64,000 nt of DNA from Minisyncoccota bacterium (GTDB lineage Bacteria > Patescibacteriota > Minisyncoccia > Phycocordibacterales > UBA9973): positions 4,099 to 68,098 of the forward strand of contig JAIPHX010000005.1 in the NCBI GenBank assembly GCA_021734995.1, in the 5' to 3' direction. Within the stretch, counting starts at the first letter, position 1. Every line of letters begins with the position of its first letter. Under the pieces are notes generated by a model. It saw nothing but the letters and a program-made list of their open reading frames with translations. It had not been told where the DNA came from and did not search any database. The translations under genes and the position numbers were made by a program. Below, piece by piece: positions 4,879-58,026 of the stretch.

Positions 4879-6507
4879 ATGAATGAAAATAACAACGAAC
4901 TAAGTGCAGCAGAAAAAATTCAATTAGCAAAAGAAAAGAAATTGAATAAAAAAACAGAAATTGAATCTCTTTATCAAGACGCTAAAAAAGAACTAGAAAA
5001 CACACTTAAAGAAATTAAGAGTGTAAAAGATTTACGAGAAAGTTTTAAACAAAAGAGGATTGATTTTACCAAACAACAAAGGGGAATAGTTGATGGTGTA
5101 AAAAAGGAAGATTTAGATATGTATAAAGATGAATTAACAGATAAATTTAGGGATACTTTTAAGCTTGAAATAGAACAATGGAAGGGGATGGGTGACGAAG
5201 TCGAAAATTTAAATAAAGAATTAAAAGAATTACAAACTTTAGCGAGTGTACAAGAAAAAAAATCTAAAGAATTATTTTACCAGACAGATGATGGTTTAAA
5301 AGTTCTAGAAAAAGAAAAAGATGAATTACTGGAGCAGGAAAAGATGAATTCATATATTGATGTTATAGATAAATTGTTTTCTCAAAATGGAGTAGATCAA
5401 CGTTATGGTAATTTTGGTCCATATAAAAAACATAACTTAGAAAATTTACTAGAAGATTTAATTCTTTGTGGTAACTTTTCTAAAGTTTTACCAGGATATT
5501 CATATGATAATTTTACTGGCCTAGATAAATCTATTTCTGAAGAAGAATATCAAAAGATATTTACAGAGTACATATTTACAAAAGTTTTGAAATCCGATTT
5601 CAAAAAACCATTTGAAGATAGGGGTTTAGAAAAAGGATTAAAAAATATTATTTCAGAACAAATTAAGTTTATGATTTATCTACATAAAAACAAAGGCAAA
5701 TTCACAGAGGTTCAAAACAAAACTTCACTTAATGATTTTATAGTAGAAAATGGTGAAAAAATTTCAACATTAAGAAATAAGATAGGAGATGTATTTGGAG
5801 AAGTTGTTAATGGATTCAGTAATATTTCCTCTGAAGATTATATAAAAGATTATATAAAAAATATTGATTATAGTTATTTAAAATTAAGTAAAAAAGAAAT
5901 TAGTAGTATTAATGATGAGATTTGGTCTGATATTAATCATTTATTACCTAAAAAAGTGGATGATATTACTTTTAATATTGATTCTGGTTACTATGCAGAT
6001 TCAAATTATTTTTCAGGTTTTTACAAAAAAGTAAGAGATATTCTTTTAAGTAAAAGAATGAACTTATTAAATACTGTTTTACCTCGTGTACAAAAACAAT
6101 TTAATGAGGAAGAAAATAAATTTATTAGCTTAAAGAAAAAGGACTTAGAAGAAACAATTAATTTATTAAGATTTAAAATTAATTATATAAACTATGTTGA
6201 AGATCAAATATTATCTTTGTTTAATAACTTTAATTCTAATAGTAGTCAAGGAATAGGAAAAGAAGTTGCTCAATATATAGGATATTTAAACAAAATTCAA
6301 AATTTTAAATTAAAACTAAATCAAAACTCTAATTATCCTACAAATTCTGTGAACTTAGAAACTCTAGATAGATATGTCCAACCAATAACCTTAGACGAAA
6401 AGGAGATTGTTATGTCTTCTGTTATTAAAGATTTTTATGAAAAAATAGAACGAATAATAAAACAATTGAATGTTGATTTGCAAGAAGATAAATCAAATAA
6501 TAACTAG
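4879..6507 (+). CDS. hypothetical K/E/N-rich coiled-coil protein
   Basis: Long ORF of low complexity with heptad-like K/E repeats and no catalytic motif. Confidence 0.5.
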   Translation: MNENNNELSAAEKIQLAKEKKLNKKTEIESLYQDAKKELENTLKEIKSVKDLRESFKQKRIDFTKQQRGIVDGVKKEDLDMYKDELTDKFRDTFKLEIEQWKGMGDEVENLNKELKELQTLASVQEKKSKELFYQTDDGLKVLEKEKDELLEQEKMNSYIDVIDKLFSQNGVDQRYGNFGPYKKHNLENLLEDLILCGNFSKVLPGYSYDNFTGLDKSISEEEYQKIFTEYIFTKVLKSDFKKPFEDRGLEKGLKNIISEQIKFMIYLHKNKGKFTEVQNKTSLNDFIVENGEKISTLRNKIGDVFGEVVNGFSNISSEDYIKDYIKNIDYSYLKLSKKEISSINDEIWSDINHLLPKKVDDITFNIDSGYYADSNYFSGFYKKVRDILLSKRMNLLNTVLPRVQKQFNEEENKFISLKKKDLEETINLLRFKINYINYVEDQILSLFNNFNSNSSQGIGKEVAQYIGYLNKIQNFKLKLNQNSNYPTNSVNLETLDRYVQPITLDEKEIVMSSVIKDFYEKIERIIKQLNVDLQEDKSNNN

Positions 6508-6541: not shown

Positions 6542-9500
6542 ATGGCAAAAGAAAATAGTGCAGACACAAAGAGTGGAAAAGGGCATCATTATGATGCTTC
6601 TGACATTTCGGTCCTTGAAGGGTTGGAACCTGTCCGTAAACGTCCTGGAATGTATATTGGGACTACTGGTCCTGAAGGTTTACACCATTTGATTTGGGAA
6701 ATATTTGACAACTCTCGTGATGAAGCGATGGGAGGTTTTTGTGATACCATTGAAGTAGTTATTCTTCCAGGTAATCGTATTAGAGTAACCGACAATGGTC
6801 GTGGTATTCCGATTGATGTTCACAAAAAAACAAAAGTATCTGCTTTAGAAACAGTGATGACTACTTTGCATGCCGGAGGGAAATTTGGAGGTGAAGGATA
6901 TAAAGTGTCTGGAGGGTTGCATGGAGTGGGTGCATCAGTCGTAAATGCTCTTTCTATATATTGTAGAGCAGAAGTCCATAAAGATGGAGGTATTTATGTA
7001 CAAGAATATTCAAAAGGGGTCAAAAAATCCGCAGTAAAAAAGATTGGTTCTACTAAACAAAATGGAACGATCATTACTTTTGAGCCAGATATAGAAATTT
7101 TTAAAGAAATAAAGTTTGATTGGAATGTGATAGTCAGTCATATTCGTCAGCAAGCATATCTTGTAAAAGGACTACGAGTATCTATTATAGACGCAAGAGA
7201 ATTTGACCCAACTCTTTTATTTGAATCAAAAAATTCAAAATTAGATCCAGATTCTGTATTCTATTTCAAAGAGCTTGGCTTAGAGCTTCCATCAGTTTCT
7301 TTTTATTTTGAAGGAGGACTTACATCTTTGATTAGATATTACAATAAGTTTCAAAAACCTGTTCAACAAAATATTTTTTATGTAGAAAAAGAACAAGACG
7401 GAGTGGGGGTGGAGATTGCCTTGCAATATGTAGATGACATTGTAGATCGCATTGTTCCTTTTGCCAACAATATCTACAACCCAGAAGGTGGTACACATGT
7501 TACAGGTTTTAAAACTGCTCTTACTAGAACTCTGAATACATATTGCAAAAAGAATGAAATGATCAAAGAATCTGAAGGAGGTTTTACAGGAGAAGATGTA
7601 TTAGAAGGTCTTACTGTTGTGATATCTGTAAAGCTTCGTGAAATACAATTTGAAGGTCAAACTAAAGCAAAGCTTGGTAGTGTAGAAGCTCAAGGTGCAG
7701 TAGCTACTGTCTTTGGTGAGGCTTTTTCGGGTTTTCTAGAGGAAAATCCAGATGAAGCTAAGTCAATCATAGGAAAAGCAGTACTTGCAATGAAAGCTCG
7801 TAAAGCGGCAAAAGCTGCAAAGGATTCTGTGCTACGTAAGGGAGCTCTTGAGGGGATGACTCTTCCAGGAAAGTTAGCAGATTGTCAAACAAAAGATGCG
7901 AGTGAATCTGAACTCTTTATTGTGGAAGGAGATTCTGCAGGAGGGTGTTTTTCAGGAGACACAAAAGTTGCTTTGGTTGACGGTAGAAATATATCTTTTA
8001 AAGAAATTATTGCTGAATATCAAAATAACAAAAAAAATTATTGTTACACAATACTTCATGATGGTAGTATTGGAATACAAGAAATAAAAAATCCAAGAAG
8101 AACAAAGACTAACGCAGAAGTTATAAAAATTATCTTGGATAATAATGAAGAAATAGTCTGCACTCCAGACCATTTGTTTATGTTGAGAGACGGTACTTAT
8201 AAACAAGCAAAAGATATTTTGATTACAGATTCTCTTATGCCCCTTAGAAAAAAGATTTCTGAAATTGGAGGGCGTATCACAATAAAGGGATATGAAATGG
8301 TCTATAATAACAATTCTAATAGATGGATCTTTACTCATATGTTGGCAGATGAATTTAATTTGCGTAAAGGTTTTGATACTATTGAAAATGGTGCATATAG
8401 GCATCACAAAGATTTTAATAAAACAAATAATAATCCGGACAATATAGTAAGACTCACAAAGGAAGAGCATATTTCTCTGCATTCTTTTTATTATGAAAAA
8501 AATTTAAAAAGACCAGATGTATTAGAAAAATTAAGTATTTTAAGAAAGACTCCGGAATATAGACAAAAAATAAGAGAAAAAATGCTCGCTATGAGAGAAG
8601 ATTTAAGTATTAGAGCTAAAGCACAATGGGAAAATGAAGAATATAAGAAATATATGGTAAATAAATTTTTAGATTTTTATGCTTCCAATAAAGATTATAG
8701 AGAAAAAAGTCAAAATATTTTACAAAAAGCACAGAAAGAATATTGGGCTAGTACTGAAAATAAAAAGAAGCAATCAAAAAAAGTGAAAGAGTTTTTTGCA
8801 ATGAATCCTTTAGCAAAAGTTAATTTGAGTGAAAAAGCTAAAAAACAATGGATGCAAGGTGATTTGTTGGATTGGAGAAGCAAAAAAACACAAGAACAAT
8901 GGACAGAAGAATTTAGGGAAAAGAGAAGAATTGCTTATAATAAAACTTATTACGAAAACACAATTAGAGTTCTAAAAAGAGTTTATGACCAAACCAAATC
9001 TATAGACATACAGTCTTTTGAAGATTTAAGAAAGATAGAAAATAATAAAAATGTACTATCGTTCAATACTTTTTTTAATAGGTTTTTCGATGAAGATTTT
9101 AATAGATTGAAAGATGCTGTTGAAAACTATAACCACAAAATAAAGAGTATTGTGCATCTTTCTGGGAAAATTGATGTGTATGATATTGAGGTTCCAGGTA
9201 CTCACAATTTTGCTCTTGCTTCTGGTGTTTTTGTTCACAATAGTGCAAAGCAAGGTAGAGATAGAAGGACTCAAGCGATTTTGCCTTTGCGCGGAAAAAT
9301 TTTGAATGTGGAGAGAGCTAGAATAGACAAAATGCTTGCATCCAAGGAAGTAAAAGCTCTCGTTATAGCATTAGGAACTTCTATTGGAGATACTTTTGAT
9401 ATAGAAAAGGCACGATATCACAAAATAATTATCGCTACTGATGCCGACGTGGACGGGTCTCACATTAGGACACTTTTGCTTACTTTGTTTTATAGATATT

Positions 9501-9952
9501 TCAAACAAATTATTGAGGCAGGGTATATCTATATTGCTCAACCTCCTTTGTTTAAGATAAAGAAAGGTAAAGAAGTTTTTTATGTTTATTCAGATGAAGA
9601 GAAAAATAAAATTATTGGTAAAGAAGAAAATCTTGATGATATTCAAAATGAAAATGATAGTTACAATCAAGAAGAAAATACGGAAAACACAGAAGACGCA
9701 GAAGAAAATACAGAAGAGGTAAAAAAGAAATCTGCAAAGCCTAGAGTGCAAAGATATAAGGGTCTCGGAGAAATGAATCCAGAGGAGTTGTGGGAGACTA
9801 CAATGGATCCAGAAAGAAGAGTGATCAAGCAAGTCACTATTGAAGATGCAGAGGAAGCAAATAAAATATTTGATATTTTAATGGGTTCAGATGTTGTCCC
9901 ACGTAAGTCTTTTATTCAATCCAATGCAAAGCTTGCGGAGATTGACTTGTAA
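6542..9952 (+). CDS. gyrB: DNA gyrase subunit B interrupted by a 432-aa intein
   Basis: N-terminal GHKL ATPase (RKRPGMYIGTTG, HHLIWEIFDNSRDEA). The Toprim motif EGDSAGG is split from SAKQGRDRRTQAILPLRGKILNVE by the insert. The C-terminal tail KRYKGLGEMNPEELWETTMDP is present. Confidence 0.9.
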   Translation: MAKENSADTKSGKGHHYDASDISVLEGLEPVRKRPGMYIGTTGPEGLHHLIWEIFDNSRDEAMGGFCDTIEVVILPGNRIRVTDNGRGIPIDVHKKTKVSALETVMTTLHAGGKFGGEGYKVSGGLHGVGASVVNALSIYCRAEVHKDGGIYVQEYSKGVKKSAVKKIGSTKQNGTIITFEPDIEIFKEIKFDWNVIVSHIRQQAYLVKGLRVSIIDAREFDPTLLFESKNSKLDPDSVFYFKELGLELPSVSFYFEGGLTSLIRYYNKFQKPVQQNIFYVEKEQDGVGVEIALQYVDDIVDRIVPFANNIYNPEGGTHVTGFKTALTRTLNTYCKKNEMIKESEGGFTGEDVLEGLTVVISVKLREIQFEGQTKAKLGSVEAQGAVATVFGEAFSGFLEENPDEAKSIIGKAVLAMKARKAAKAAKDSVLRKGALEGMTLPGKLADCQTKDASESELFIVEGDSAGGCFSGDTKVALVDGRNISFKEIIAEYQNNKKNYCYTILHDGSIGIQEIKNPRRTKTNAEVIKIILDNNEEIVCTPDHLFMLRDGTYKQAKDILITDSLMPLRKKISEIGGRITIKGYEMVYNNNSNRWIFTHMLADEFNLRKGFDTIENGAYRHHKDFNKTNNNPDNIVRLTKEEHISLHSFYYEKNLKRPDVLEKLSILRKTPEYRQKIREKMLAMREDLSIRAKAQWENEEYKKYMVNKFLDFYASNKDYREKSQNILQKAQKEYWASTENKKKQSKKVKEFFAMNPLAKVNLSEKAKKQWMQGDLLDWRSKKTQEQWTEEFREKRRIAYNKTYYENTIRVLKRVYDQTKSIDIQSFEDLRKIENNKNVLSFNTFFNRFFDEDFNRLKDAVENYNHKIKSIVHLSGKIDVYDIEVPGTHNFALASGVFVHNSAKQGRDRRTQAILPLRGKILNVERARIDKMLASKEVKALVIALGTSIGDTFDIEKARYHKIIIATDADVDGSHIRTLLLTLFYRYFKQIIEAGYIYIAQPPLFKIKKGKEVFYVYSDEEKNKIIGKEENLDDIQNENDSYNQEENTENTEDAEENTEEVKKKSAKPRVQRYKGLGEMNPEELWETTMDPERRVIKQVTIEDAEEANKIFDILMGSDVVPRKSFIQSNAKLAEIDL
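7946..9241 (+). mobile_element. intein with an HNH-type homing-endonuclease-like domain, inserted in gyrB between EGDSAGG and SAKQGRD
   Basis: It starts with Cys (CFSGDTKVALVDG, block A) and ends VFVHN followed by Ser as the +1 extein residue. An internal HNH-like motif (YRHHKDFNKTNNNPDNIVRLTKEEHISLH) lies around 8390-8485. Confidence 0.75.
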
Positions 9953-21749: not shown

Positions 21750-23729
21750 ATGGTAAATAACAGAGAAAATATTCCAACAGCAAAGTCATTAGGGTATAAA
21801 GACTTAAATTCATTTAAAAAACCAAAAGGCAAGAATGGAAAAGAGAAAAAAGAACAAGAATATAGTCTTGCAGATAAGGTAGCTATTGTTGCTAAAATTT
21901 TTGTCACACTTTCTGTGTTAAATTTATTACATTTAGCCTATAAAAATGCGACAAAAGAAATTTTTGACTTAAATGGGTATAAATATACTTCTGAACAGAT
22001 GTTTAATATTGCCAAAACACAACCTAAAAGATTTTTGCAAAATATTGAATTTTTTAAAAATGTTCCTGAGCTGAATTTCATAGAAGAAATAATAGAATCT
22101 GCTCGAAAAGAACCTGATTACTTTATGTATAACAATGAATACATTAAAGAAATATTACCAGCAGATAAATGGAATAGTTTGGTAGAAAATTTATTGATTA
22201 CAAATTCATATAAAGCTGTTGAAAATCCTATATACAAAAGATTGTTGGATGAGATCAAAGAACCAAAATCAAAAGAAATTAAGGTTTTACAAAATATTGA
22301 TAATCCTAAAATTGCTCTTTTTTTAAAAAAAATAACCAAAGATGGTTGGACTAAAGAAATGGTAGAAAAAATAATAACAGATGACAAACTTTTTTTTAAA
22401 GCTTTGGTTCAGGCTAGATCAGATATTGATGTTTTAAGTGAAGAGTATTTGGAAATATATTTAAGAGATCTTTCTTTAAGAAACATATTGACGGTCAATG
22501 AATTGCACGATCAAAACGATCAGATAAGGTTTGCTTCCCTCGATGGTATATCGGCAAAAGAATTATATACTCTCCTTGTGTATGGAGAAGAAGAAATATT
22601 CACATCTTCTTTTAATGAAATATTTTCTCGCTTATTAGAAAATATGAAAAAGGAAAACATAAATGGCAAAGACTTACTTAAGCAAGTAGGGATGAACAAA
22701 TTTAGGATTTTCATTAAAGAATGCGCTAGTTTTAATAGGTTAAATGAATATTTAGCAACTCTAAACAAAAAAGATAGTGAAGAATTGATGACTAGTATTG
22801 TAAAAGATATTTCTCCAATTGCACAGAATTTAGATCAAGCCATTGCGGTAGCTGATATTTTTAGTGTAGTTACTGATACTAGAATTTTAGGAATATTACA
22901 AAAACAAATTAAGTTAGAATATGAAAAAATTAAAGTCTCAGAAGATGCAAGAATAGAAGATGAGGTAGCGTATAGAATCCTAGCTGGTATGTTTGGTAAT
23001 AAAATAGTGGTTGAGAAAGATTGGTTTGAAGATATGGTAAAAAATTTTGGGGTGGAAGATATTTCTAAAGTAGAATCTAAAGATCTTGTGAATAAAGATA
23101 ATATTAACATCCAACAATATTATTTTTATAATGATGAAGATGGTATTGCATCTTTTTATAATTTTTTGAATCAATATAAAAATAGAAAGGAGTGGGAAGT
23201 GATCTTGGAAAAGGGGTTTGTTTTGATTAAATCAAAAAAAGAAAGCAAAATAAAAATAGAAATATATGCTAACTATCCAAGTTCGGGAGAGGAGGGGTCT
23301 AGTGTCATAGAAAAATATTTTCATGAAAATAAAATAGAGCCCTTGATAGCAGTTCATCGGGGGCATAGTTACTATGTGCATAACACATTAAATAGAATAA
23401 ATGATAAGGTTAAAATTGTGCATTTAGGATCTTGTGGTGGATATAATACAATGGGAGAAATTTTAGAAAGAATACCAGATGCTCAAGTTATCTCTACCAA
23501 AGGTACAGGAAAAATGTCTATTAATGATTTTTTGTTAAAAGCCTTAAATGAAGAAATATTGACCGGAGAAAAGATTGTATGGCAAAAATTTTGGGATAAA
23601 ATCCATTCTAAATTAAAAGACGATTCTCAATTTAAAAATTATATACCACCTCATAAAAATTTAGGATTAATCTTCCTAAAAACATACAATCAAGAGTTAG
23701 ATAAAGCATATACAAATTATTGGGAGTGA
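21750..23729 (+). CDS. large hypothetical protein (659 aa), K/E/N-rich, possibly with an N-terminal membrane segment
   Basis: Long ORF with lineage-typical composition and no recognisable catalytic motif. Confidence 0.5.
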   Translation: MVNNRENIPTAKSLGYKDLNSFKKPKGKNGKEKKEQEYSLADKVAIVAKIFVTLSVLNLLHLAYKNATKEIFDLNGYKYTSEQMFNIAKTQPKRFLQNIEFFKNVPELNFIEEIIESARKEPDYFMYNNEYIKEILPADKWNSLVENLLITNSYKAVENPIYKRLLDEIKEPKSKEIKVLQNIDNPKIALFLKKITKDGWTKEMVEKIITDDKLFFKALVQARSDIDVLSEEYLEIYLRDLSLRNILTVNELHDQNDQIRFASLDGISAKELYTLLVYGEEEIFTSSFNEIFSRLLENMKKENINGKDLLKQVGMNKFRIFIKECASFNRLNEYLATLNKKDSEELMTSIVKDISPIAQNLDQAIAVADIFSVVTDTRILGILQKQIKLEYEKIKVSEDARIEDEVAYRILAGMFGNKIVVEKDWFEDMVKNFGVEDISKVESKDLVNKDNINIQQYYFYNDEDGIASFYNFLNQYKNRKEWEVILEKGFVLIKSKKESKIKIEIYANYPSSGEEGSSVIEKYFHENKIEPLIAVHRGHSYYVHNTLNRINDKVKIVHLGSCGGYNTMGEILERIPDAQVISTKGTGKMSINDFLLKALNEEILTGEKIVWQKFWDKIHSKLKDDSQFKNYIPPHKNLGLIFLKTYNQELDKAYTNYWE

Positions 23730-49554: not shown

Positions 49555-51930
49555 ATGAGTAAAAATAAATCAAGAGCAAAGAAGTCAGTGGTCGGAATAA
49601 AAAACATTCGTAACAGAGAAGGCAATATTATATCTTTTGACCTTAGTAAAATAGTAGATGCTATTTCTAAAGCATTCAATAATACTAAAGAAGGTACCAT
49701 CAAAGAGGCACAATCTGTCGCTGATAAGGTTTACAAAGAAGTTTTGCGTCTAATTAAAGACTCTAATGATAAAAATTATGTTCCCACAGTTGAGATGATG
49801 CAGGATTTAGTTGAAGCTGAGCTTATGGAGCTTGGTTATCATCTTACAGCTAAAGCTTATATTTTATATAGGTCAAAAAGGGCAGAATTACGTAGAGAGG
49901 TTGGGATTGTCCCAGCTGAAGATAAAAAGATTTTTGATACTTCTAGCTCTTATTTTTATAGTTCATACGAAGAATTTATTTTTTATCGTACATATTCTAA
50001 ATGGCAAGAATCTTTAGGCAGGAGAGAAACTTGGATTGAAACAACAGATCGTTTTATGGCCTATATGAAAGAAAATTTAGGCAATAAATTTTCTACGAAA
50101 GATTATGATGAGGTAAGAGAAGCTATTTTAAAACAAGATGTTTGTCCTTCTATGCGTTTACTTTGGTCTGCTGGTCCAGCTTGTGACAAGACTAATGTGT
50201 GGGCATACAATTGTTCTTATATTGCACCTACTTGTTGGCAAGATTTTGGTGAGATTATGTATATTTTGATGTGTGGAGCTGGACTTGGTTTTTCTGTAGA
50301 GTCAGAGACTGTTCAAAAATTTCCTCAAATAAAAAGACAGACAGGGAAAAAATTAGCTACGCATATTGTTGAAGATAGCAAAGAAGGATGGGCAGATGCT
50401 TTTGTGCTGGCTTGTAAAACATGGGCAGATGGTCTTGATATAAGTTTTGATTATTCCAAAGTTAGACCTTCTGGTGCTAGATTACACACCGCGGGAGGAC
50501 GTGCATCTGGGCCACAGCCACTTATTGATTTAATAAATTTTACCAAAGTAAGAATGCTTGCTAGACAAGGAAAGCGTCTAAGCAATCTAGACTTGCACGA
50601 CATTATTTGTCAGATTGGTTTGATTGTAGTTGCAGGAGGCGTTAGAAGAAGTGCCTTGATTTCTCTTTCAGATATTGATGATGAATCTATGAGAAAGTCC
50701 AAGCAAGGTCAATTTTGGCTAGAAAATGGTCAAAGATCTATGGCAAACAATTCCGCTGTGTACAATCAAAAACCTTCAGCTTCAGAATTTTTAAATGAAT
50801 GGATTGAGTTAATAAAGTCCGGCACAGGGGAAAGAGGTATTTTTAATAGAGGTGGTTTACTTACTCAATTACCAAAAAGAAGAATAGACAATTGGAAAAA
50901 AGCAGGCATTATAGATGAACAAAATACTATCGTTGAACTTCCTGGATCTAATCCTTGTGGAGAGATTACTCTTAGGTCAAAACAATTCTGCAACCTTACT
51001 TCCATTGTGGTGCGTCCAAAAGATGATTTAGTTGAGCTAAAAAGAAAAGTTAGACTTTCTACTATTTTAGGTACATATCAGGCTACCTTAACTCACTTTG
51101 GTTATCTTTCTAAAGAATGGAAACAAAATTGTGACGAGGAGGCCTTACTAGGAGTATCTATTACAGGATACTATGACAATACTCTTATCAGAAATGATGA
51201 AGTATTGAGAGATTTAAAAAATGAATCTATAAAAGTGAACAAAGAATATGCTAAAAAATTTGGTATAAATCAATCTACTTGTGTCACCACAGTGAAGCCA
51301 CATGGCAATTCTGGTCAGCTTATGTATGTTGGCTCAGGTATGCATCCTTGGTTTGCAAAGTATTTTATTAGAAGAGTTCGTATTGGTGTAAATGATCCAT
51401 TGTTTACATTAATGAAAGATCAAGGAGTCCCTTTTAAACCAGAAGTTGGGTACTCAACAGCAAACTCTACTGTAGCAGTATTAGAGTTTCCCATCAAAGC
51501 ACCAGAAGGAGCAGTGACAAAAGATAAAGTTTCAGCTATTGATTTGCTTCAAGAATGGAAGAGATTAAAAGTAAATTATATTGAACACAACCCATCTGTG
51601 ACTATTTATGTAGGAAATGATGAATGGATTAAAGTTGCCAATTTTGTCTACGAAAACTGGGATATCGTAGGAGGGCTTTCTTTTTTGCCTCGTTCAGAAC
51701 ACGTGTATCAACTTGCTCCTTATGAAGAGATAAGTAAAGAAGAGTATGAAAAAAGAATGAAAGAGATAAAACAAATAGATTTCTCAAAGCTTGTATATTA
51801 TGAGCAAGAAGACAATACCATTGGTGCTAAAGAATTTGCTTGTGTTTCAGGGGTCTGTTCTATTGATGACGTTATGGCAGAAGAAGCACAAAAAGAAAAC
51901 GCTCAAAGTTCTTCCTCTGAAGAAGCTTAG
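49555..51930 (+). CDS. nrdJ: class II (adenosylcobalamin-dependent, monomeric RTPR-like) ribonucleotide reductase with an N-terminal ATP-cone
   Basis: ATP-cone (VVGIKNIRNREGNIISFDLSKIVDAI). Class II active-site NPCGEITL and a C-terminal Cys pair (CVSGVCSIDD). Confidence 0.75.
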   Translation: MSKNKSRAKKSVVGIKNIRNREGNIISFDLSKIVDAISKAFNNTKEGTIKEAQSVADKVYKEVLRLIKDSNDKNYVPTVEMMQDLVEAELMELGYHLTAKAYILYRSKRAELRREVGIVPAEDKKIFDTSSSYFYSSYEEFIFYRTYSKWQESLGRRETWIETTDRFMAYMKENLGNKFSTKDYDEVREAILKQDVCPSMRLLWSAGPACDKTNVWAYNCSYIAPTCWQDFGEIMYILMCGAGLGFSVESETVQKFPQIKRQTGKKLATHIVEDSKEGWADAFVLACKTWADGLDISFDYSKVRPSGARLHTAGGRASGPQPLIDLINFTKVRMLARQGKRLSNLDLHDIICQIGLIVVAGGVRRSALISLSDIDDESMRKSKQGQFWLENGQRSMANNSAVYNQKPSASEFLNEWIELIKSGTGERGIFNRGGLLTQLPKRRIDNWKKAGIIDEQNTIVELPGSNPCGEITLRSKQFCNLTSIVVRPKDDLVELKRKVRLSTILGTYQATLTHFGYLSKEWKQNCDEEALLGVSITGYYDNTLIRNDEVLRDLKNESIKVNKEYAKKFGINQSTCVTTVKPHGNSGQLMYVGSGMHPWFAKYFIRRVRIGVNDPLFTLMKDQGVPFKPEVGYSTANSTVAVLEFPIKAPEGAVTKDKVSAIDLLQEWKRLKVNYIEHNPSVTIYVGNDEWIKVANFVYENWDIVGGLSFLPRSEHVYQLAPYEEISKEEYEKRMKEIKQIDFSKLVYYEQEDNTIGAKEFACVSGVCSIDDVMAEEAQKENAQSSSSEEA

Positions 51931-52049: not shown

Positions 52050-52348
52050 GACTTATATCAGATGATTGCTCTTGTTTTTTAACAAGAGAGGAAAGTCCGA
52101 ACACGCAGTCGGCCTAGCCGATTAAACGTAGTGGGTAATACCCATCTTCCAAGGAGTTGGAAAGAGGTGCGAACAGAGACGAGTCTTTAGCTTCGGCTAA
52201 AGAGTGAAACGGCAAAATCCTTACGCGCGTGCAAGATCGTGTCCGTTTTTACGGAAGAATCGCTTGACTCTATTGGTAACAATAGAGCTAGATAAATAAT
52301 CATCGACTCTTTTAAAGAGTTACAGAATTCGGCTTATAGGTATAAGAC
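52050..52348 (+). ncRNA. rnpB: RNase P RNA, bacterial type A, compact (about 300 nt)
   Basis: P3 hairpin CTCTTGTTttttAACAAGAG followed by the P4 5' strand GAGGAAAGTCCGAAC. The 3' side carries ACAGAATTCGGCTTAT. P1 is the CTTATA/TATAAG pairing at the ends. Confidence 0.65.
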
Positions 52349-52354
52349 TCATAT

Positions 52355-55569: not shown

Positions 55570-58026
55570 ATGCCAAAAAGTAAAGAAGAAGAAAAACCAA
55601 TAGAGAGACAAGGTATTATACCTGTGGATGTCGTTGCTGAAATGAAAGAGTCTTATTTGGCTTATGCCATGTCTGTTATTACAGCAAGAGCATTACCAGA
55701 CGTAAGAGATGGGTTAAAGCCAGTTCATAGAAGAATACTTTTTGCGATGAGTGAAATGGGACTTACTTTCTCTTCTAGATTTAGAAAATCCGCTGCTATT
55801 GTCGGAGATGTTCTTGGAAAATACCATCCACATGGAGATGTGGCTGTGTATGATTCTATGGTAGGTATGGCACAAGAATTCTCTTTTCGTTATCCGTTGA
55901 TTATAGGACAAGGGAACTTTGGTTCTATTGATGGAGATTCTGCTGCTGCTATGAGGTATACCGAAGCGAAAATGGCCAAATTATCTTCTGAGCTTTTAAG
56001 GGATTTAGATAAAGAAACAGTAGATTTTCGTCCCAACTATGACCAGACAAGAAAAGAACCTATTGTCTTACCATCTGCTGTACCATCTCTTTTGTTGAAT
56101 GGAACACTAGGTATTGCTGTTGGTATGGCTACCAACATCCCACCACACAATCTTTATGAAGTTGTCTCAGCGACGAAGCATCTAATTGAAAATGAGAATG
56201 CTACCACTGAAGATTTAATGCAATTTGTAAAAGGACCGGATTTTCCTACAGGAGGTATTGCTTATGGATATAAAGACATGCTTCATGCATATTCTAGCGG
56301 AAGAGGTGGTGTAGTATGTAGGGGAGAAGCTGAGATTATAGAACAAAAAGGTGGTAATTTTCAGATAATCATCACTTCCTTACCTTTTAGAGTAAACAAA
56401 GCAAATCTTATTATGGCTATTGCTGAGTTGGTGCAAGAAAAAAAATTAGACGGCATTAAGGGTTTGAGAGATGAGTCTACCAAAGATATAAGAGTAGTGA
56501 TTGATTTAAAATCTAGCGCTCATCCAGAAAAGGTTTTGAATTATATATATAGGAATACTCAGCTTGAGTCTAATTTCAATTTCAATTTAGTTGCTTTGGT
56601 AGATGGAGTACCTCAGACTTTGTCGCTCAAATCTATCCTTGCACAATTTATATTACACAGACAAGAGGTAGTCAGAAGAAGGACTACTTATGATTTAAGA
56701 AAAGCAGAAGAGAGAGAACATATTTTACTTGGATTAAAAAAAGCACTAGATAAGATTGATAGAGTTATTACAATCATTAGAAGCTCAAAAAATGCTTCTG
56801 TTGCGAAAGAAAATTTGATTAAAGAATTTAAGTTCTCAGATTTACAAGCAACAGCTATTTTGGAAATGAAGCTTGCCAAGCTTGCTGGCCTAGAAAGAAA
56901 AGCAGTACTTGACGAGCTCGAAGAAAAACAAAAATTCATAAAAGAAATGAAAGAGATTTTGGCTAACCCAAAAAGAATGTTGAAAATTATTTCTACTGAG
57001 TTAGATGAAATAGCTGAAAGATATAAAGATGAAAGAAGAACAAAGATAATGAAGGGTGGAGTAAAAGAAATCTCAGACGAGGATTTAATTCCAGACAAAG
57101 AGACTGTCCTTGTGCTTACAGCAGGGGGATATGTAAAGCGTACTGATCCTTCAGAATATAGGTCACAAAAAAGAGGAGGGGTGGGAGTTGTTGATTTAGA
57201 AACAAAAGAAGAAGATTTTGTAACTATGCTTGTGTCTGGATCTACTCATAGTGATTTACTTTTCTTTACAAATATGGGGAAAGTGTATCAAATGAAAATG
57301 TATGATATTCCAGAAGGACGCAGAGCCACCAAAGGTAAGTCTATGATGAATTTTATTTCATTAGCAGGTGAAGAAAAAGTCACTTCTATTTTGGCAATGC
57401 CAAAAAATCTGGATAAGACTGACTCATCTCTAATGCTTTTCACAAAAGAAGGAACAGTCAAAAAAATGTCTGCAGGAAGTTTTAAAGATGTTCGTCGTAG
57501 TGGTATTATTGCTATCAAATTAGACAAAAATGATAGCTTGATAAGTGCATTCCTTACAGACAAAGGAGATGATGTAATGGTGGCGACTAATCTTGGTCAA
57601 TCAATTCGTTTTAAAGAATCTGACATTCGTCAAATGGGTAGGACTGCAGGAGGAGTACGAGGAATGAAACTTGGGAAAGGAGATGAAGTAATCGCAGTTG
57701 ACGTTGTAAAAAAAGAAAATAAAGATGGGTTTTTCTTGGTAATGAGTGAAAATGGTCTAGGTAAAAAGACTCCTTTAAAAGAATATAAAGTACAAAAAAG
57801 AGGTGGAAGTGGAATCAAGACAGCAAAAGTAACTCCTAAAACAGGAAAACTAATTGTAGGTAAGGTATTGAACGGTGAAGAAGAAAAGTTGATTGCAATG
57901 TCTAAGAAAGGGCAAGTGATCCGCACAGATTTAAAGGATATTTCTAGTTTGGGGAGACAAACACAAGGAGTGACAATAATGAGGTTACGAGCAGGGGATT
58001 ATATTGCTTCTTTGGTGTGTGCTTAA
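55570..58026 (+). CDS. gyrA: DNA gyrase subunit A
   Basis: [19 protein letters not shown], the active-site Tyr region and C-terminal beta-pinwheel repeats. No intein. Confidence 0.9.

What the first reader, a model, noticed from the sequence alone, without database searches (positions are those of the whole stretch)
7946..9241. HNH-endonuclease-containing intein in the GyrB Toprim motif
GyrB reads ...ELFIVEGDSAGG | CFSGDTKVALVDG ... VFVHN | [24 protein letters not shown].... A 432-aa element with a canonical intein block A (Cys1, GDT) and a terminal HN plus Ser+1 splits the catalytic Toprim region. The insert carries an HNH-like motif (YRHHKDFNKTNNNPDNIVRLTKEEHISLH) rather than the LAGLIDADG homing endonuclease more common in inteins. 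Gyrase function depends on faithful splicing.
Basis: partly seen in the sequence, partly recalled or inferred. Interest (0 to 1): 0.55.

Follow-up and report, generated by a model that had tools for sequence, protein, structure and literature searches.

The report
HNH-type homing intein in GyrB
The DNA gyrase B gene of this candidate-phylum bacterium is interrupted by a self-splicing protein element (an intein) that carries its own HNH-type DNA-cutting domain; it is real and intact, but it is an ordinary member of a widespread GyrB intein family whose type example was described in the 1990s, and this gene is already labelled as such in NCBI.

Summary
Positions 7946-9241 encode a 432-aa in-frame insert in GyrB (ORF 6542-9952). 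It starts with Cys1, ends with His-Asn and is followed by Ser+1. It sits directly after the Toprim motif EGDSAGG.

- **Intein:** Intein profiles score above their curated cut-offs, and the AlphaFold model matches 39 solved Hint/intein structures. Removing the insert in silico gives a 704-aa protein that passes the gyrB equivalog cut-off.
- **HNH domain:** The centre is an HNH (beta-beta-alpha-metal) nuclease. It matches phage HNH families (E 4e-11), has invariant His and Asn residues, and its model resembles phage HNH endonucleases.
- **Helical region:** A ~210-aa basic helical region follows. It matches no family and is probably the DNA-binding part.

The element is not new. More than 1,400 relatives occupy the same GyrB site in at least 582 species genomes of Bacteria and Archaea, including cyanobacteria. 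Its last six residues plus Ser match the published Synechocystis GyrB C-intein. NCBI already holds this protein as [quoted passage not shown].

Mobility is supported. The other 119 of the 120 closest GyrB proteins lack the intein, intein and extein similarities are uncorrelated, and some relatives show endonuclease-only decay.

Interest is low.

The parts
6542..9952 (+). gyrB precursor ORF: 1136 aa including the intein, plus the stop codon
   Evidence: ORF list. The Pfam domains HATPase_c, DNA_gyraseB, Toprim and DNA_gyraseB_C are all found. It is identical to NCBI protein P0121, 'intein-containing DNA gyrase subunit B'.
6542..7945 (+). N-extein: 468 aa comprising the ATPase and transducer domains and the first Toprim strand
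   Evidence: The NCBIfam gyrB model aligns residues 12-469 to profile positions 5-436.
7925..7945 (+). Toprim motif E-G-D-S-A-G-G (residues 462-468). It holds the catalytic Glu and forms the N-side of the splice and homing site.
   Evidence: Read directly from the sequence. The motif is invariant at the junction in homologs. The role of the Glu comes from established knowledge of GyrB Toprim (E424 in E. coli).
7946..9241 (+). Intein, 432 aa, from Cys1 to Asn432
   Evidence: Removing it restores a contiguous GyrB.
7946..8266 (+). Hint N-terminal lobe (intein residues 1-107). Block A is C-F-S-G-D-T and block B is T73-P-D-H76.
   Evidence: TIGR01445 matches residues 1-79. T73 and H76 are invariant in 57 sequences. 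The model is beta-rich with pLDDT 94-97.
8267..8500 (+). HNH (beta-beta-alpha-metal) nuclease domain, intein residues 108-185. The core motif H153 H154 ... N162 ... N166 ... H175 ... H179 lies at 8402-8482.
   Evidence: phrog_7545 'HNH endonuclease' E 3.9e-11, phrog_21964 E 3e-6 and phrog_15471 E 1.3e-5. Pfam HNH_3 scores 20-24.4 bits, just under the 24.8 cut-off, but 12 of 19 family members match it. The listed residues are invariant. The model shows strand-strand-helix topology. The model matches phage HNH endonucleases in BFVD.
8501..9130 (+). Basic all-helical region, intein residues 186-395. It is the probable DNA-recognition part of the endonuclease and contains an internal duplication (about residues 202-240 versus 269-314).
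   Evidence: No Pfam, NCBIfam or PHROG family matches it. Net charge is +15. The model is helical with pLDDT 94-98. Trp, Tyr and Arg residues are invariant. hhalign self-match E 3e-9. The DNA-binding role is inferred.
9131..9241 (+). Hint C-terminal lobe (intein residues 396-432). Blocks F and G end in G-V-F-V-H431-N432.
   Evidence: TIGR01443 matches residues 410-432. GVFVHN or GIFVHN is found in 92 of 92 readable homolog junctions. GVFVHN plus Ser is identical to the published Ssp GyrB S11 C-intein.
9242..9952 (+). C-extein. It starts with Ser+1 (9242-9244) and holds the rest of Toprim, including the DxDxD cluster, and the GyrB C-terminal domain.
   Evidence: Pfam Toprim covers residues 901-1000 at profile positions 13-95, and DNA_gyraseB_C covers residues 1066-1126.

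Best explanation
This is a bifunctional, mobile, class-1 intein of the Synechocystis-GyrB type.

**Splicing.** The gyrB mRNA is translated into a 1136-aa precursor. In the precursor the Toprim catalytic Glu (EGDSAGG) is separated from the Toprim acidic cluster by 432 residues. The two Hint lobes (residues 1-107 and 396-432) fold together and carry out standard protein splicing in four steps:
1. An N-S acyl shift at Cys1.
2. Trans-esterification to Ser+1.
3. Cyclisation of Asn432, assisted by His431.
4. An O-N shift that joins Gly468 to Ser, giving a normal 704-aa GyrB.

**Homing.** The excised intein is a homing endonuclease. Its HNH (beta-beta-alpha-metal) active site is built from H153/H154, N162, N166, H175 and H179. 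The ~210-aa basic helical region positions that site on the intein-less gyrB sequence that encodes [13 protein letters not shown]. The enzyme nicks or cuts there, and repair from the intein-bearing allele copies the element in.

**Why the host range is so wide.** The target encodes one of the most conserved motifs of type IIA topoisomerases, so the element can spread across very distant hosts.

**Shown here:** anatomy, fold, conservation, restoration of the host protein in silico, and patchy, discordant distribution.
**Inferred:** the chemistry, the DNA target, and cleavage activity.
For: - **Boundaries and catalytic residues:** Exact boundaries are. Residues C1, T73, H76, H431, N432 and S+1 are all present and conserved.
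- **Hint domain:** Profiles score above their cut-offs. The full model has pLDDT 88.9 and matches 39 solved intein or Hedgehog Hint structures at E<=1e-3.
- **Restored host protein:** Excision restores a single-stretch gyrB match that passes the TIGR01059 cut-off, 885.9 bits against 882.4. The precursor scores 864.4.
- **HNH domain:** Significant PHROG matches, invariant His and Asn residues, beta-beta-alpha topology in a pLDDT-94.5 model, and top-50 BFVD hits that are almost all HNH or homing endonucleases.
- **Mobility:**
  - The other 119 of the 120 closest GyrB proteins (79-86% identical) lack the intein and keep an intact target site; the one intein-bearing entry is this gene itself.
  - Intein and extein identities are uncorrelated over 64 loci (Spearman rho -0.07).
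  - Archaeal-labelled genomes hold closer inteins but more distant exteins (P 3e-5 and 2e-6).
  - Eight of 39 relatives have deletions confined to the endonuclease region, with all splicing residues kept.
- **Family size:** More than 1,400 relatives, with the same junction in every homolog where it could be read. At least 582 species genomes carry it.
- **Experimental precedent:** The Synechocystis GyrB intein splices efficiently.
Against: - No experiment exists on this protein, so neither splicing nor DNA cleavage has been shown for it.
- I found no paper in the held library reporting endonuclease activity for any GyrB intein of this type.
- Pfam HNH_3 is just below its gathering score for this sequence: 20-24.4 bits against 24.8.
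- Foldseek against solved structures found no significant match for the central domain; the best E-value was 2.8.
- The profile search of the PDB found nothing either.
- The intein's GC3 equals that of the host genes, so it is not a recent arrival. It could have been resident long enough for the nuclease to be inactive in ways that sequence does not show.
Confidence: 0.88

Rival explanations
1. The intein is competent for splicing but its endonuclease is inactive. It would be a resident 'fixed' element that is now only inherited vertically in this lineage and persists because precise loss is rare.
For: GC3 of the intein (0.20) has fully converged on that of the host genes. Decay of the endonuclease region does occur in this family, in 8 of 39 relatives. 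No nuclease activity has been reported for this allele in the papers I could search.
Against: In this copy the endonuclease region is full length at 432 aa, which is the modal size. Every invariant HNH residue and every conserved Trp, Tyr and Arg of the helical region is intact. Conservation across 57 sequences from distant hosts implies purifying selection on the nuclease. The intein is absent from the other 119 of the 120 closest GyrB proteins, which fits recent gain better than ancient fixation.
Confidence: 0.15
2. The intein has been co-opted as a conditional switch. Splicing, and therefore gyrase activity, would be gated by redox state through a disulfide involving Cys1 and one of the conserved internal cysteines, Cys33 or Cys72 (the latter next to block B).
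For: C33 and C72 are at least 90% conserved alongside C1. Regulatory roles for inteins in replication proteins have been proposed in the literature (introduction, citing Novikova 2016 and Lennon 2018).
Against: Conserved cysteines can be purely structural. The patchy distribution, with the intein absent from nearly all close relatives, argues against an essential regulatory role.
Confidence: 0.07
3. It is not an intein. It would be a lineage-specific insertion domain that stays in the mature GyrB, or an assembly or frameshift artefact.
For: None beyond the absence of protein-level data.
Against: The Hint profiles and fold are confirmed, and the nucleophile, His-Asn and Ser+1 sit exactly at the boundaries. 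The same precursor is found on an independent public assembly of run SRR12088351 and in the NCBI record. Homologs occur at the identical site in hundreds of genomes. The insert separates the Toprim Glu from the DxD cluster, which is incompatible with an active unspliced enzyme (inference from established Toprim knowledge).
Confidence: 0.01

Closest known systems
Ssp GyrB intein (Synechocystis sp. PCC 6803 GyrB intein; source of the engineered S1 and S11 split inteins)
   Same: Both sit in GyrB. The published C-intein GVFVHN followed by Ser is identical to residues 427-432 plus Ser+1 here. Cyanobacterial GyrB inteins (Pleurocapsa L062 and L080, Pannus L070) align over all 432 residues at 50-51% identity and about 435 aa, at the same junction. 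The natural intein has a putative endonuclease domain that can be deleted without loss of splicing.
   Different: The host here is a Patescibacteria (Pacebacteria) MAG with 33% GC. Sequence identity to the cyanobacterial copies is about 50%. I could not obtain the PCC 6803 sequence itself for a direct alignment. My recollection that this is the intein named in the 1997 HNH report rests on memory, because that paper was not held.
Phage and giant-virus HNH homing endonucleases of the HNH_3 / NUMOD4 type (PF13392; the I-HmuI-like group, from my own knowledge)
   Same: It matches phrog_7545, phrog_21964 and phrog_15471, all 'HNH endonuclease' families. The model superposes on many viral HNH endonucleases at rmsd 2-5 A over 70-120 residues, including one named NUMOD4. 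The motif HH-x7-N-x3-N-x8-H-x3-H is shared.
   Different: Here the nuclease is embedded in frame inside a Hint domain. It is followed by a ~210-aa helical region with no family match, not by the known NUMOD or helix-turn-helix modules. The Pfam score is just under the gathering threshold.
Other HNH-bearing inteins: the Hint-domain protein of Bacillus phage SP-15, an intein-bearing phage terminase, and the RtcB intein family (NF052663)
   Same: The central-domain model aligns over 293 columns with the SP-15 protein and 271 columns with the terminase (E 1.3e-6 and 7.6e-4). The NCBIfam RtcB-intein model matches the whole intein at 132.8 bits, including the HNH part.
   Different: The host proteins and insertion sites differ. 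The relationship is at the level of the intein and endonuclease module, not the allele.
LAGLIDADG-type inteins (such as PI-SceI, PI-PfuI and the Mxe GyrA relatives)
   Same: They share the Hint splicing fold; PI-PfuI and Mxe GyrA appear among the structural hits. The overall logic is the same: an endonuclease inserted between blocks B and F.
   Different: No LAGLIDADG profile match was found. The nuclease here is beta-beta-alpha-metal.

Membership tests
Class 1 intein (Hint domain) | Nucleophile (Cys, Ser or Thr) as the first residue | tested here: met
   Cys1 is the TGT codon at 7946-7948. The first residue is Cys at all 61 homolog N-junctions that could be read.
Class 1 intein (Hint domain) | Block B TxxH motif | tested here: met
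   T73-P-D-H76 is present. T73 and H76 are invariant in 57 sequences.
Class 1 intein (Hint domain) | C-terminal His-Asn followed by a +1 nucleophile | tested here: met
   H431-N432 is followed by Ser+1. GVFVHN or GIFVHN followed by Ser is found at all 92 readable homolog junctions.
Class 1 intein (Hint domain) | Hint profile and fold | tested here: met
   PF14890 scores 80.3 bits against 35.8. TIGR01445 and TIGR01443 score above their cut-offs. Foldseek finds 39 solved intein or Hedgehog structures at E<=1e-3.
Class 1 intein (Hint domain) | In-frame insertion whose removal restores a contiguous, conserved host protein | tested here: met
   The spliced 704-aa product matches TIGR01059 in one stretch at 885.9 bits, above the 882.4 cut-off. 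Intein-less relatives read EGDSAGGS(A/C)K across the junction.
Class 1 intein (Hint domain) | Protein splicing actually occurs | not testable with these tools
   This needs expression plus a Western blot or mass spectrometry. The Synechocystis homolog splices.
HNH (beta-beta-alpha-metal) endonuclease | Significant match to curated HNH profiles | tested here: inconclusive
   PHROG HNH families match at E 3.9e-11, 3e-6 and 1.3e-5. Pfam HNH_3 scores 20-24.4 bits, below the 24.8 gathering score, for this sequence. Twelve of 19 family members match it at E<0.01. The match is significant overall, but the Pfam threshold is not reached.
HNH (beta-beta-alpha-metal) endonuclease | Catalytic His plus Asn and His metal-site residues, conserved | tested here: met
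   H153, H154, N162, N166, H175 and H179 are invariant in 57 sequences.
HNH (beta-beta-alpha-metal) endonuclease | Two strands followed by a helix around the motif; fold similarity to known HNH nucleases | tested here: met
HNH (beta-beta-alpha-metal) endonuclease | Metal-dependent DNA nicking or cleavage at a specific site | not testable with these tools
   This needs an in-vitro cleavage assay on the intein-less gyrB junction.
Ssp GyrB-type intein allele (same insertion site in GyrB Toprim) | Insertion between EGDSAGG and S(A)K of GyrB | tested here: met
   The junction is the same in this window and in all homologs where it could be read, including the cyanobacterial loci L062 and L070 (all three cyanobacterial loci, with L080, are listed).
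Ssp GyrB-type intein allele (same insertion site in GyrB Toprim) | Full-length homology to the Synechocystis PCC 6803 intein | tested here: inconclusive
   The published six C-terminal residues plus Ser are identical. Other cyanobacterial GyrB inteins are 50-51% identical over 432 aa. The PCC 6803 sequence itself was not available for alignment.
LAGLIDADG intein endonuclease | LAGLIDADG motifs or a LAGLIDADG profile match | tested here: not met
   No LAGLIDADG family was found in Pfam scans at E up to 10.

The most novel reading that the evidence does not exclude
The ~210-aa basic, internally duplicated helical region (intein residues 186-395) matches no Pfam, NCBIfam, PHROG or solved structure. 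It may be an undescribed type of DNA-recognition module. Such a module would let this HNH intein target the near-universal Toprim-coding sequence and move between very distant hosts. That could include exchange between co-occurring ultra-small Patescibacteria and DPANN archaea, whose inteins are on average closer to this one than those of bacteria, while their exteins are more distant.
Probability: 0.25. Interest if true: 0.4.

Novelty: already known. Interest (0 to 1): 0.15.

Why it matters
The finding matters little beyond correct annotation. Gene callers and family models under-score intein-interrupted essential genes: the precursor falls below the gyrB equivalog cut-off and the spliced form passes, so recognising the intein avoids mis-annotation.

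There are three modest points of wider value:
- This copy is an intact, AT-rich, full-length representative of a very widespread HNH intein whose nuclease and DNA-binding region have apparently never been characterised.
- Its patchy presence makes it a possible marker of gene flow among Patescibacteria and DPANN archaea. Only this gene, out of the 120 closest GyrB proteins, carries it.
- Relatives of this intein are already useful protein-engineering tools, as the Ssp GyrB split inteins show.

Tried and rejected
- **PDB sequence search:** A profile search of the PDB with the HNH sub-domain alignment found only chance hits.
- **PDB fold search:** Foldseek of the central-domain model against the PDB found nothing significant. 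The best hits were Cas8-HNH at E 2.8 and I-PpoI at rank 27.
- **Helical region:** Pfam, NCBIfam and PHROGs found no family for it.
- **Literature:** Searches for 'GyrB intein' with 'HNH', and for the peptide CFSGDT, returned nothing. The 1997 Dalgaard paper is not held. That the first HNH intein was the Synechocystis GyrB one therefore rests on my memory plus the title quoted.
- **Antisense ORF:** I considered that the 176-aa antisense ORF at 7952-8482 might be an antisense homing-endonuclease gene and rejected it. It has no family match, it is not conserved in 68 homologous inteins, and it is only mildly longer than codon-shuffled expectation.
- **Other inteins:** The ten other large ORFs I scanned have no intein. 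A six-frame scan found no second copy of this Hint or HNH domain.
- **Recent acquisition:** I looked for a compositional signal and rejected it, because GC3 matches the host.
Full report
**1. The observation**

The window holds an ORF at 6542..9952 (+) of 1136 aa. Reading the DNA directly, the TGT Cys codon is at 7946-7948, CAC-AAT (His-Asn) is at 9236-9241, and AGT (Ser) is at 9242-9244. The insert is 1296 nt, or 432 codons, in frame and without stops.

**2. It is an intein**

- Pfam Intein_splicing scores 80.3 bits against a cut-off of 35.8 and spans residues 10-432 of the insert. NCBIfam intein_Nterm (44.5 against 24.5) and intein_Cterm (32.1 against 15.6) match the two ends.
- In the whole ORF, the Pfam Toprim match restarts at profile position 13 immediately after the insert. 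The gyrB models align on both sides of it.
- An AlphaFold model built on a 57-sequence alignment has mean pLDDT 88.9. It matches 39 solved intein or Hedgehog Hint structures at E<=1e-3, including NrdJ-1, Npu and Ssp DnaE, Mtu RecA, Ssp DnaB, PI-PfuI and Mxe GyrA.
- All class-1 catalytic positions are present and conserved: C1, T73/H76 (block B, TPDH), H431-N432 and Ser+1.
- Removing the 432 residues gives a 704-aa protein reading ...[15 protein letters not shown].... It matches TIGR01059 gyrB in a single stretch at 885.9 bits, above the 882.4 cut-off, whereas the precursor scores 864.4.
- The insert separates the Toprim catalytic-Glu motif (EGDSAGG, residues 462-468) from the DxDxD cluster in the C-extein. 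From established knowledge of Toprim, the unspliced protein should therefore be inactive. This last step is inference.

**3. The endonuclease is HNH-type**

- Pfam HNH_3 matches residues 153-175 at only 20-24.4 bits, under the 24.8 gathering score, so I tested the claim independently.
- Three PHROG 'HNH endonuclease' families match significantly: phrog_7545 at E 3.9e-11, phrog_21964 at 3e-6 and phrog_15471 at 1.3e-5. The match covers the beta-hairpin and helix upstream of the His-His as well as the core.
- Twelve of 19 family members match HNH_3 at E<0.01, with a best E of 3e-6.
- H153, H154, N162, N166, H175 and H179 are invariant in 57 sequences.
- A separate model of residues 100-395 has pLDDT 94.5 and places these residues on a strand-strand-helix unit.
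- Against predicted viral structures, nearly all of the top 50 hits are HNH or homing endonucleases at probability 1.00 and rmsd 2-5 A over 70-120 residues. The two longest alignments are to other intein-bearing proteins: a Bacillus phage SP-15 Hint-domain protein (293 columns) and an 1117-aa terminase (271 columns).
- No LAGLIDADG family was hit.

**4. The remaining 210 residues**

Intein residues 186-395 are all-helical with pLDDT 94-98. Net charge is +15, and the region is rich in invariant Trp, Tyr and Arg. It matches no Pfam, NCBIfam or PHROG family. Profile self-comparison shows an internal duplication: about residues 216-240 against 290-314 at E 3e-9, and 202-232 against 269-306. I infer that this is the DNA-recognition part of the homing enzyme. 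That was not tested.

**5. How common it is, and what is already known**

- The intein has more than 1,400 relatives in the protein collection. Nearly all of the 120 listed carry GyrB domains, and many are named 'intein-containing DNA gyrase subunit B'.
- The junction is the same in every homolog where it could be read: an E-G/S-x-S-A/G-G-G motif (mostly EGDSAGG), then Cys, on the N side (61 junctions), and GVFVHN or GIFVHN, then an S-x-K motif (mostly SAK), on the C side (92 junctions). The modal size is 429-435 aa.
The bacterial hosts are Patescibacteria, Cyanobacteria, Chloroflexota, Acidobacteria, Desulfobulbales, Geobacter, Cytophagales, Planctomycetes, Omnitrophota and Margulisbacteria. 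The archaeal hosts are Woese-, Pace-, Nano- and Micrarchaeota, Thermoplasmatota and Methanosarcinales.
- The published Synechocystis GyrB S11 C-intein is GVFVHN followed by Ser (PMC2794532), identical to the end of this element. That intein and its endonuclease-deleted mini form splice efficiently (PMC3620165).
- GyrB is a listed intein host, with 33 bacterial cases in a 2015 survey (PMC4760082).
- In-frame HNH inteins have been known since Dalgaard et al. 1997 (title quoted; discussed).
- That the 1997 example was the Synechocystis GyrB intein is my recollection. The paper itself was not held.
- This window's GyrB is P0121, 100% identical over 1100 aa. NCBI holds it as 'MAG: intein-containing DNA gyrase subunit B [Candidatus Pacebacteria bacterium]'. 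It is also on an independent assembly of run SRR12088351.

**6. Host and mobility**

- The window carries a bacterial class-A RNase P RNA. It also carries ordinary bacterial housekeeping genes, including rpoB, rpoC, gyrA, pheT, thrS, smc and RNase R.
- The 120 closest extein relatives are Nomurabacteria, Paceibacterota and Minisyncoccia at 79-86% identity. The one intein-bearing entry is this gene itself (P0121), and the other 119 lack the intein. The five whose junction I read (P0122, P0123, P0124, P0126, P0136) have an uninterrupted EGDSAGGS(A/C)K site.
- Across 64 intein-bearing loci, intein identity and extein identity to this window are uncorrelated (Spearman rho -0.07, P 0.56).
- Archaeal-labelled genomes hold inteins that are closer on average (55.8% against 52.6%, P 3e-5) but exteins that are more distant (50.1% against 55.5%, P 2e-6).
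- The very closest inteins (69-71% identical: P0001, P0003, P0038) sit in related exteins (72-86% identical), so transmission within the lineage also occurs.
- Eight of 39 complete relatives carry deletions confined to the endonuclease region while keeping all splicing residues. This is the classic decay phase of the homing cycle.
- The intein's GC3 (0.20) equals that of the host genes (0.19-0.25), so this copy is not a recent arrival.
- MAG binning errors could inflate the apparent cross-domain pattern. I could not check this.

**7. Mechanism, with confidence**

The most likely mechanism (about 0.88) is standard class-1 protein splicing, which yields a 704-aa GyrB and a free 432-aa HNH homing endonuclease. 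The endonuclease targets the intein-less Toprim-coding sequence.

| Rival | Confidence | Main point |
|---|---|---|
| Splicing-only element with a dead nuclease | about 0.15 | Argued against by intact invariant residues and full length |
| Redox-gated regulatory switch using the conserved Cys33 or Cys72 | about 0.07 | Untested |
| Not an intein, or an artefact | about 0.01 | Effectively refuted |

**8. Verdict**

The observation and the interpretation are both correct, but the element is an already annotated member of a long-known and very widespread intein allele. The only parts with some residual novelty are the uncharacterised helical DNA-binding region and the possible use of this intein as a marker of gene flow between Patescibacteria and DPANN archaea.

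Interest is 0.15. Novelty: already known.

Noticed in passing
window 4879-6507 (+): A 542-aa ORF lies directly upstream of gyrB. Its GC is the lowest of the 12 ORFs measured (GC 24%, GC3 14.7%). No Pfam family scores above its cut-off; there is only a sub-threshold CtsR HTH hit. The ORF is Asn-, Lys- and Glu-rich and is present on the independent SRR12088351 contig. Its function is unknown.
   Followed up: partly
window 21750-23729 (+): A 659-aa ORF with no Pfam family. The only hit is a sub-threshold one to DUF1699.
   Followed up: partly
window 7952-8482 (-): A 176-aa antisense ORF lies inside the intein. It has no family match and is not conserved in 68 homologous inteins, where stop-free runs are 49-125 codons at similar GC. 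It is only mildly longer than codon-shuffled expectation (P about 0.012). It is most likely chance in AT-rich, Lys-rich coding DNA.
   Followed up: yes
window 52050-52352 (+): A bacterial class-A RNase P RNA scores 118.7 bits. It is only 303 nt long for a 367-position model, so it is a shortened form. It marks the host as a bacterium.
   Followed up: no
window 55570-58026 (+) and 49555-51930 (+): gyrA and a class II (B12-dependent) ribonucleotide reductase are both frequent intein hosts elsewhere. Both are intein-free here.
   Followed up: yes
intein residues 33 and 72 (window 8042-8044 and 8159-8161): Two internal cysteines are at least 90% conserved across the family in addition to Cys1. One of them is adjacent to block B (C-T-P-D-H). 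A possible disulfide or redox control of splicing was not tested.
   Followed up: no
homologs (for example P0041 and P0020): Many homologous GyrB-intein gene calls begin inside GyrB or inside the intein, even on very long contigs. P0041 starts at about intein residue 24 on a 231-kb contig. P0020 starts in the transducer domain on a 1.8-Mb contig. This suggests that gene callers, or chunking in the database, truncate intein-bearing gyrB. In addition, the window's own protein (P0121) was not returned by the intein query.
   Followed up: no
NCBIfam NF052663: The whole intein, including the HNH part, matches the 'intein-containing RtcB family protein' model at 132.8 bits. A closely related HNH intein therefore lives in RtcB.
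   Followed up: no
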